Assembly (NCBI RefSeq): GCF_050920415.1
Contig: NZ_CP169310.1
Direction: 5' to 3' (one strand)
Source: Escherichia coli
GTDB lineage: Bacteria > Pseudomonadota > Gammaproteobacteria > Enterobacterales > Enterobacteriaceae
Length of the DNA stretch: 64,000 nucleotides
A program made the position numbers. Below, one piece after another: positions 63,405-64,000 of this stretch. How positions within the stretch are numbered: the first letter of the stretch is position 1; the number at the start of each line of letters is the position of its first letter.

Positions 63405-64000
63405 TGACCACTTCAAACTGCGTACTTCGCCGGGGCGTTTAAATACTCAGTTTGAGTATCATACAATTTATCTTTCAACAAAATAGCATATAGCCAGCTT
63501 CAATCTTGCTGTCAGATTGAAGCATTAAAAAGAATGCAGCAAGATAGCTGCATTGTGGATTAATACCCCTGTTTTTCCTTATATGCCTCAACTGCTTTTT
63601 CCAGAACTTCCACCAGTTTCAACCCCTCACGCTCCGCGATATCCCGGATTTCTTGGTCGAAAGCAGGTGTGACACGTGTCGCAAATGCCAGCGTCCTGTT
63701 TGTTTTTCTGGCAGAACGACCATCGCGGCGGGTATATGCCTCGGTAACTATTTGCGTAACCATAGGGTCATGGTTCACAGGCGATAAGTACGCCTGCGGT
63801 ATGGCAGAGACTGCCGGTGCTATCTCAGGCGCATTCAGGCTGGTAGCCAATTCGTCGGGGCCTGGGGGTACACCCAGCCCACCACGGGCCCTTTTAGTTT
63901 TAAGTTTTGATGCATCAGCCATTACTCTTCTCCAATCTTATCGATGAGTGCCTGAATAAGTTCATCTGCTCTCTCGTTTAAACCTTTATAACGTGTTTCT

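What the first reader, a model, noticed from the sequence alone, without database searches (positions are those of the whole stretch)
63560..64000. Translationally coupled gene pair resembling a type Ib partition cassette at the right edge
A 120-aa protein with a ribbon-helix-helix-like C-terminus is coupled (TAATG overlap) to an upstream gene running off the window. Together with estA, astA, fimbriae and IS density, this suggests the window derives from a large plasmid rather than the chromosome.
Basis: inference. Interest (0 to 1): 0.3.

Follow-up and report, generated by a model that had tools for sequence, protein, structure and literature searches.

The report
Plasmid partition gene pair (type Ib)
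The right edge of the window holds the end of an ordinary plasmid-segregation cassette: a small ParA ATPase gene, a small DNA-binding partner gene and their binding-site repeats, on a large IncF virulence plasmid of E. coli.

Summary
A 120-aa ORF (63560-63922, minus strand) starts in a TAATG overlap with an upstream ORF that runs off the window. In an identical plasmid record (NZ_CP012499.1) that partner is an intact 210-aa Walker-type ParA with no N-terminal DNA-binding domain. Its nearest solved relative is ParF of TP228.

The 120-aa protein has the layout of a type Ib centromere-binding protein: a conserved basic N-terminal motif, a variable linker, and a conserved C-terminal strand-helix-helix. 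Only ribbon-helix-helix (RHH) proteins match its fold, and only at sub-threshold scores.

A 16-bp site, GCWGC-N6-GCWGC, sits exactly 32 nt before the parA start in five divergent loci and 9 nt after the parB stop in four of them. The downstream copy is at window 63536-63551.

All 144 copies in 5,426 complete E. coli genomes are on plasmids.

The cassette is not a sequence relative of pB171 ParB or of ParG. The partner protein has no Pfam or NCBIfam family.

In distant relatives the pair is followed in tandem by a pB171-par1-type ParM/ParR locus. Here an insertion sequence (IS) has removed that locus and left one ParR-box palindrome (63444-63458).

This is an ordinary feature of low interest.

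The parts
63922..64000 (-). 3' end of parA: the last 25 codons plus the stop at 63924-63922. The rest of the 633-nt gene lies beyond the window.
   Evidence: One search gives the translation. The identical record L001 shows the whole 210-aa ParA.
63560..63922 (-). parB-like gene for a 120-aa centromere-binding protein. It has a conserved basic N-terminal motif (residues 1-36), a variable linker (about 37-62) and a conserved strand-helix-helix C-terminus (about 63-120). Its GGAG ribosome-binding site is at 63933-63930, inside parA.
   Evidence: (alignment A1).
63533..63554 (.). Palindrome AATGCAGC-N6-GCTGCATT followed by a T-run. It contains the family's 16-bp site GCWGC-N6-GCWGC (63536-63551). 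Proposed role: downstream (parC2-like) binding site for the 120-aa protein that doubles as the operon terminator.
   Evidence: One search finds the site at +9 from the parB stop in 4 of 5 divergent loci, with about 0.02 hits expected per shuffled locus. One search scores it as a terminator-like hairpin. Searches give the motif counts.
63497..63523 (.). Second palindrome GCTTCAATCT-N7-AGATTGAAGC, carrying a degenerate copy of the same motif (ACAGCAAGAT at 63503-63512, minus strand). Proposed second element of the downstream site array.
   Evidence: (families D1, I1). It aligns with motif copies in the Klebsiella, Salmonella and Erwinia loci.
63444..63458 (.). Single palindrome TACTCAGTTTGAGTA. 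It is a vestige of the promoter/centromere of a pB171-par1-type ParM/ParR (type II) locus that follows parB in relatives and is missing here.
   Evidence: There are three copies in the Salmonella parB-parM spacer, and two near-copies (each one mismatch from the pattern) in the parC1 region of a pB171-type locus. ParM is 79% and ParR 58% identical between those loci. Alignment.
63138..63417 (+). Remnant of an IS3-family insertion sequence (C-terminal transposase fragment plus terminal repeat). Its end marks where homology with the relatives' parB-parM spacer stops.
   Evidence: One search shows the 89-aa ORF with an integrase-core-like sequence. RefSeq annotates an 'integrase core domain-containing protein' here. 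The homology break is visible.

Best explanation
This is the distal half of a type Ib plasmid partition operon, parA-parB, with flanking centromere/operator repeats, on a large IncFIA/IncFIB virulence plasmid. It lies about 1.5 kb from the IncFIB RepB initiator gene. Proposed mechanism, inferred from the type Ib paradigm (TP228 ParFG, pB171 par2, pSM19035 delta/omega): dimers of the 120-aa protein use a ribbon-helix-helix C-terminus to bind GCWGC pentamers spaced 11 bp apart. These sites occur in an array upstream of parA and in a shorter array downstream of parB. The site 32 nt before the parA start also acts as an operator for autorepression. The conserved basic N-terminal tail (MADASKLKTKRARGGLGVPPGP...) contacts ATP-bound, nucleoid-associated ParA dimers and stimulates their ATPase. 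This produces the ParA gradient that spaces plasmid copies over the nucleoid before division. What is shown here: gene structure, ParA identity, protein architecture and conservation, purifying selection, position-conserved repeats, and exclusive plasmid location. What is inferred: DNA binding by the 120-aa protein, the RHH fold, ATPase stimulation, autoregulation, and the stabilising effect.
For: ParA is 210 aa with the deviant Walker A KGGVGKST and no N-terminal domain. It matches Pfam CbiA/MipZ. It aligns full-length to NCBIfam NF041546 ParA_partition at 93.7 bits. ParF 4dzz and TP228 ParA 5u1g match at E 6e-7 over residues 4-188. It is 30% identical to a pB171-type ParA, E 3e-15. The partner shows a conserved N-motif, variable linker and conserved C-domain in 40 aligned homologues. 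Helices 86-99 and 103-118 are confidently predicted. The top Foldseek matches are CopG, Arc, ParG, TacA, MatP and NikA, with rmsd 0.6-1.1 A over about 35 residues. A fused-dimer model best matches single-chain Arc, probability 0.97. hhalign places TRVTPAFD...IRDIAEREGLKLVEVLEKAVEAYKE in register with the ParG strand-helix-helix, P 0.016. The 16-mer GCWGC-N6-GCWGC lies at exactly -32 from parA in 5 of 5 loci and at +9 from parB in 4 of 5, against about 0.02 expected per shuffled locus. Of 14 GCWGCAWGAT matches in the 12.6-kb locus L001, 9 flank the operon; 4.3 are expected in the whole locus. dN/dS is 0.035 for parA and 0.14 for parB. The cassette occurs in 460 PLSDB plasmids. All 144 E. coli copies are on plasmids. 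The cassette sits next to replication initiator genes in both E. coli and Klebsiella plasmids.
Against: No experiment on this protein family was found. The 120-aa protein matches no Pfam, NCBIfam or PDB sequence family. All structural matches to RHH proteins have E>0.2, and the beta-ribbon itself is modelled with pLDDT below 50. No sigma-70 consensus promoter was found upstream of parA by the simple scan. The palindrome after parB also fits an intrinsic terminator, so its role as a second centromere is not separable from that role by sequence. In this plasmid the downstream region is cut by an IS about 140 bp after parB.
Confidence: 0.85

Rival explanations
1. The cassette is a decayed remnant that no longer partitions this plasmid. 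IS insertions have removed the adjacent type II locus and part of the downstream site array, and the plasmid relies on other systems, for example those of its IncFIA replicon.
For: An IS3-family end abuts the stub about 140 bp after parB, and only one ParR box remains. IS-derived fragments also lie between parA and repB in L001.
Against: Both ORFs are intact. They are identical or nearly identical in at least 17 E. coli plasmid records, and dN/dS is 0.035 and 0.14. The full upstream repeat array and the -32 site are retained. The same parAB-only form is found in hundreds of Klebsiella and E. coli plasmids. Type Ib systems such as TP228 ParFG work with a single upstream centromere (established knowledge).
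Confidence: 0.08
2. The pair is not a segregation system. It is a ParA-like ATPase plus RHH accessory pair serving another DNA transaction, such as relaxosome assembly (like VirC1/VirC2 of Ti plasmids), or a plain RHH repressor with a positioning ATPase for other cargo.
For: ParA-like ATPase plus RHH pairs exist outside partition (VirC1/VirC2; established knowledge). The plasmid is conjugative.
Against: There is no match to VirC2 or any relaxosome family at E<=10. The pair sits beside replication initiators of different types rather than beside oriT or tra genes. In relatives it is fused in tandem to a ParM/ParR partition locus. It also occurs on mobilizable and non-mobilizable small plasmids. 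Repeat arrays on both sides of the operon are the type Ib hallmark (PMC7602700).
Confidence: 0.03
3. The palindrome directly after parB (63533-63554) is only the operon's intrinsic terminator. The system then has a single, upstream centromere and no parC2-type site.
For: It has an 8-bp stem, a 6-nt loop and a T-run. The hairpin and T-run are kept, with stem changes on both sides, in Salmonella and Erwinia.
Against: Its stem is the same GCWGC-N6-GCWGC site that occurs upstream in non-terminator contexts. More motif copies follow it in every relative, up to five in Pantoea. The two roles are not exclusive.
Confidence: 0.25

Closest known systems
TP228 ParF/ParG/parH (type Ib partition; PDB 4dzz, 5u1g, 1p94)
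   Same: Both have a small ParA-superfamily ATPase of about 206-210 aa without an N-terminal domain. ParF is the best solved match to this ParA. Both have a small partner with a flexible basic N-tail and a C-terminal strand-helix-helix, and hhalign puts the two C-termini in register. Both have degenerate short repeats upstream of the operon that also serve as operator (PMC3130281, title and abstract).
   Different: ParA identity is only about 25%. The partner is 120 aa rather than 76 and does not match Pfam ParG. The repeat unit is a GCWGC pentamer on an 11-bp spacing rather than ParG's tetramer boxes. Sites also lie downstream of the operon.
pB171 par2 (ParA/ParB/parC1/parC2), the type Ib half of the pB171 double par locus
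   Same: The architecture is the same: a 210-214-aa ParA, a small ParB and site arrays on both sides of the operon (PMC7602700; locus L011). Both are associated with a pB171-par1-type ParM/ParR locus.
   Different: ParA is only 30% identical. The 91-aa pB171-type ParB shows no similarity by BLASTP or hhalign. The repeats differ in sequence. The two par loci are tandem in this family's relatives but divergent around a shared parC1 in pB171. In the window's plasmid the type II half is lost.
pESBL (IncI1) type Ib par locus (PMC7602700)
   Same: It has a Walker-type ParA and a roughly 100-aa ParB that was annotated as hypothetical and has no recognisable DNA-binding motif. [quoted passage not shown]
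   Different: It has octamer repeats rather than GCWGC pentamers. Sequence relatedness of the ParB proteins was not tested here.

Membership tests
Type Ib partition system | Small Walker-type ParA (about 190-310 aa) with deviant Walker A KGGxxK[ST] and no N-terminal HTH domain | tested here: met
   210 aa, with KGGVGKST at residues 11-18. CbiA/MipZ and ParA_partition hits span the full length. ParF is the best PDB match.
Type Ib partition system | Small centromere-binding protein encoded directly downstream in the same operon and unrelated to HTH ParB/Spo0J | tested here: met
   120 aa with a TAATG overlap to parA. No ParB/Spo0J or SopB family hit. Tight juxtaposition is kept in relatives.
Type Ib partition system | Centromere-binding protein with a flexible N-terminal tail and a dimeric ribbon-helix-helix DNA-binding domain | tested here: inconclusive
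   The N-tail and linker have low confidence and the two C-terminal helices are confident. Only RHH proteins are retrieved, but with E>0.2. hhalign to ParG is in register at P 0.016. The ribbon is not confidently modelled. Pfam RHH_3 matches 1 of 40 members at E 0.015.
Type Ib partition system | Arrays of short repeats (centromere/operator) next to the operon | tested here: met
   GCWGC-N6-GCWGC is at -32 from parA in 5 of 5 loci and at +9 from parB in 4 of 5. The motif is enriched in both flanks. Protein binding itself is not testable here.
Type Ib partition system | Stabilises a low-copy plasmid; the partner stimulates ParA ATPase | not testable with these tools
   Needs plasmid-loss and ATPase assays.
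ParG family (Pfam PF09274) | Sequence match to the ParG profile | tested here: not met
   No PF09274 hit at E<=10 for the query or for any of 40 family members. hhalign probability is 2.9%.
pB171 par2 ParA/ParB family | Sequence homology of both proteins to pB171-type ParA (214 aa) and ParB (91 aa) | tested here: not met
   ParA is 30% identical, which is superfamily level. ParB gives no alignment at E<=100, and hhalign gives E 0.38.
Type Ia partition (P1 ParAB, F SopAB, IncR parAB) | ParA of about 400 aa with an N-terminal HTH, and a ParB of about 320 aa with an HTH/CTPase domain | tested here: not met
   The sizes here are 210 and 120 aa. The IncR backbone parAB of pK245 is 401 + 324 aa and a different system.

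The most novel reading that the evidence does not exclude
The 120-aa protein may found an undescribed family of type Ib centromere-binding proteins. It has no Pfam or NCBIfam model and is annotated 'hypothetical' in about 460 plasmids from Enterobacterales to Xanthomonas, Pseudomonas and Rickettsia. Its centromere would be GCWGC pentamers on an 11-bp spacing. Its ancestral state would be a tandem double par locus in which this type Ib module is fused to a pB171-par1-type ParM/ParR module. The same type II module would then have paired independently with two unrelated type Ib modules, in tandem here and divergently in pB171. The abutting site arrays hint at cross-regulation like that reported for pB171.
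Probability: 0.45. Interest if true: 0.35.

Novelty: new member of a known kind. Interest (0 to 1): 0.2.

Why it matters
It confirms that the window is plasmid DNA and locates a maintenance module beside the IncFIB replicon of an F4-fimbria/toxin virulence plasmid. It would allow a functional name (type Ib ParB-like centromere-binding protein) and a candidate centromere sequence for a gene labelled 'hypothetical' in hundreds of resistance and virulence plasmids, which would help with plasmid typing, incompatibility prediction and curing strategies. The mechanism class is well known, so the gain is in annotation rather than in concept.

Tried and rejected
- **IncR parAB.** I supposed the cassette was the IncR backbone parAB, because relatives sit between retA-like and umuC genes. 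This was rejected: pK245's IncR parAB is a type Ia pair of 401 + 324 aa. pK245's other small ParA pair has a ParA 26% identical and an unrelated partner.
- **Direct retrieval of pB171.** NC_002142 and AB024946 are not held, and the Gerdes-lab papers are not held. I reached a pB171-type locus through a published parC2 primer instead.
- **Sequence searches against the PDB.** Neither the 120-aa protein nor its profile gave any meaningful hit.
- **Fused-dimer AlphaFold model.** It was built to show the beta-ribbon. Mean pLDDT was 54.7 and the ribbon was below 50, so the result is inconclusive.
- **Promoter scan.** No consensus promoter was found upstream of parA.
- **Literature searches.** Searches by RefSeq protein accession, by IncFIB/RHH terms and by 'partitioning determinant' found no study of this family. 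A possible link to the functional SD4 determinant of P. syringae pPsv48B could not be tested because the record is not held.
- **KY296104 (pHN84KPC).** The record is not held.

Full report
**Observation**

The 120-aa ORF at 63560..63922 on the minus strand is real. On that strand the junction reads GGAGAAGAGTAATGGCT. The upstream frame stops at TAA (63924-63922), and the ATG (63922-63920) shares one base with it. A GGAG lies seven bases further upstream. The upstream frame is open to the end of the window and encodes ...ETRYKGLNERADELIQALIDKIGEE*.

**Where the DNA comes from**

Window 63400-64000 is 100% identical to four large E. coli/Escherichia plasmids. It is 87-90% identical to several hundred Klebsiella, E. 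coli and Salmonella plasmids.

Window 39001-64000 is 100% identical and colinear with pCFSAN004181P (NZ_CP012499.1). That plasmid is 224 kb, IncFIA/IncFIB and conjugative, and carries F4 fimbrial genes and an S6 autotransporter.

In 5,426 complete E. coli genomes the cassette occurs 144 times, always on plasmids and never on a chromosome.

**The partner gene**

In the identical record (locus L001) the upstream gene is intact and encodes 210 aa.
- It starts MAWIVGFISQKGGVGKST, so the deviant Walker A box sits at residues 11-18 with no N-terminal domain before it.
- It matches Pfam CbiA and MipZ.
- It aligns end to end with NCBIfam ParA_partition, at 93.7 bits, which is below that equivalog's cut-off of 180.
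- Its best solved relatives are ParF and ParA of TP228, at E 6e-7 over residues 4-188.
- The RepB-type IncFIB initiator gene lies about 1.5 kb upstream, followed by a tyrosine recombinase gene.

**The 120-aa protein**

It matches no Pfam, NCBIfam or PDB sequence family. It has 251 homologues at E<=0.001, and tblastn finds it in 460 PLSDB plasmids. Nearly all copies are annotated 'hypothetical protein' next to a ParA gene.

An alignment of 40 members (A1) shows three parts:
- a conserved N-terminal motif, MADASKLKxxRxRxxLGxPPGPDEVATSLNAPEIAP;
- a linker that varies in length and sequence;
- a conserved C-terminus, YxRRDGRSARKTNRTLAFATRVTPEFDxEIRDIAEREGLKLVEVLExALxAYKxKQGY.

AlphaFold models the last part as an extended segment followed by helices 86-99 and 103-118, with pLDDT 84-89. 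The rest has low confidence.

Foldseek against the PDB returns almost only ribbon-helix-helix proteins: CopG, Arc, ParG, TacA, MatP, NikA and SvtR. The rmsd is 0.6-1.1 A over about 35 residues, but all E-values exceed 2. A fused-dimer model was of low confidence; its best match was single-chain Arc, probability 0.97, E 0.21. hhalign of A1 against ParG aligns the strand-helix-helix in register at P 0.016. The ParG sequence used was checked against 1p94 first.

I take the RHH fold as likely but not demonstrated.

**Repeats**

Both flanks of the operon carry copies of a motif built from GCWGC pentamers 11 bp apart, with an A/T-rich spacer such as AAGATA.

GCWGCAWGAT with one mismatch allowed occurs 14 times in the 12.6-kb locus, against 4.3 expected. 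Nine of those copies, including all five exact ones, flank parAB.

I compared five loci whose 120-aa proteins are 60-93% identical to the window's over aligned positions: E. coli, Klebsiella, Salmonella, Pantoea and Erwinia. The 16-mer GCWGC-N6-GCWGC lies exactly 32 nt before the parA start in all five. It lies 9 nt after the parB stop in four of them. About 0.02 hits are expected per shuffled locus.

The window holds the downstream copy at 63536-63551. It sits inside a hairpin with a T-run that also scores as a terminator (63533-63554). A second palindrome lies at 63497-63523. The upstream array lies beyond the window end.

Repeat arrays on both sides of the operon are the arrangement reported for pB171 par2, pSM19035 and pESBL (PMC7602700).

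**Selection**

Against the Klebsiella copy, dN/dS is 0.035 for parA and 0.14 for parB. Both genes are therefore maintained.

**Relation to known systems**

I recovered a pB171-type double par locus (L011) using a published parC2 primer. It has parR and parM on one side of parC1, and a 214-aa ParA, a 91-aa ParB and parC2 on the other.
- The present ParA is 30% identical to that ParA.
- The two small proteins show no similarity.
- The repeats differ in sequence.

The cassette therefore works like pB171 par2 and TP228 ParFG but belongs to neither sequence family. It is also not the IncR backbone parAB, which is type Ia.

**An unexpected detail**

In the Salmonella, Pantoea and Erwinia relatives, parB is followed in the same direction by a ParM/ParR locus. 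Its proteins are 79% and 58% identical to those of the pB171-type par1. The spacer carries TACTCA-N3-TGAGTA palindromes, near-copies of which (one mismatch each) also occur in the pB171-type parC1.

The window keeps exactly one such palindrome, at 63444-63458. Homology then stops at the end of an IS3-family remnant near 63417. Klebsiella plasmids are cut by a different IS a few bases further on.

So the window's cassette is the surviving type Ib half of a tandem double par locus.

**Verdict**

This is an ordinary plasmid partition cassette of a well-known kind. The only new elements are that its centromere-binding protein belongs to an unnamed family, and that a candidate centromere can now be written down. 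Binding, autoregulation, ATPase stimulation and plasmid stabilisation are inferred, not shown.

Noticed in passing
window 63444-63458; L002 3538-3659; L011 2390-2450: A single TACTCA-N3-TGAGTA palindrome survives between parB and an IS end. In relatives, three such boxes precede a ParM/ParR locus that is 79% and 58% identical to the pB171 par1 type. The cassette is therefore the remaining half of a tandem double par locus.
   Followed up: yes
window about 63417; L008 about 3960-4000: The E. coli and Klebsiella plasmid lineages are each cut by a different IS (opposite orientation, different end sequence) within a few bases of each other, inside the second ParR-box. This is either an insertion hot spot or selection for loss of the type II locus.
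   Followed up: partly
window 62810-63082 and 63138-63407: Two short transposase fragments lie back to back. One is a 90-aa C-terminal piece that looks like an IS110-family transposase. The other is an 89-aa C-terminal integrase-core piece of an IS3-family transposase. An intact IS66-family transposase (60887-62470) lies just to their left.
   Followed up: no
window 4087-4102 and 57469-57484: The identical 16-mer GCAGCCTGACGGCTGC occurs twice, 53 kb apart. It fits the GCWGC-N6-GCWGC pattern by chance (G/C-rich spacer) and probably marks two copies of one repeated element.
   Followed up: no
L010 (pK245) 41000-41925: pK245 carries a second small ParA (208 aa) with a 100-aa hypothetical partner beside a RepB-type initiator. 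Its ParA is 26% identical to the one here and its partner is unrelated. It is another unnamed type Ib partner family.
   Followed up: partly
L001 7700-8100 (beyond the window end): The DNA between the parA upstream repeats and the IncFIB repB gene contains what look like IS-derived coding fragments, so this replicon-par junction has also been rearranged.
   Followed up: no
window 39001-58000: According to the annotation of the identical plasmid, this stretch carries the F4 (K88) fimbrial fae operon and an S6-family autotransporter peptidase gene.
   Followed up: no
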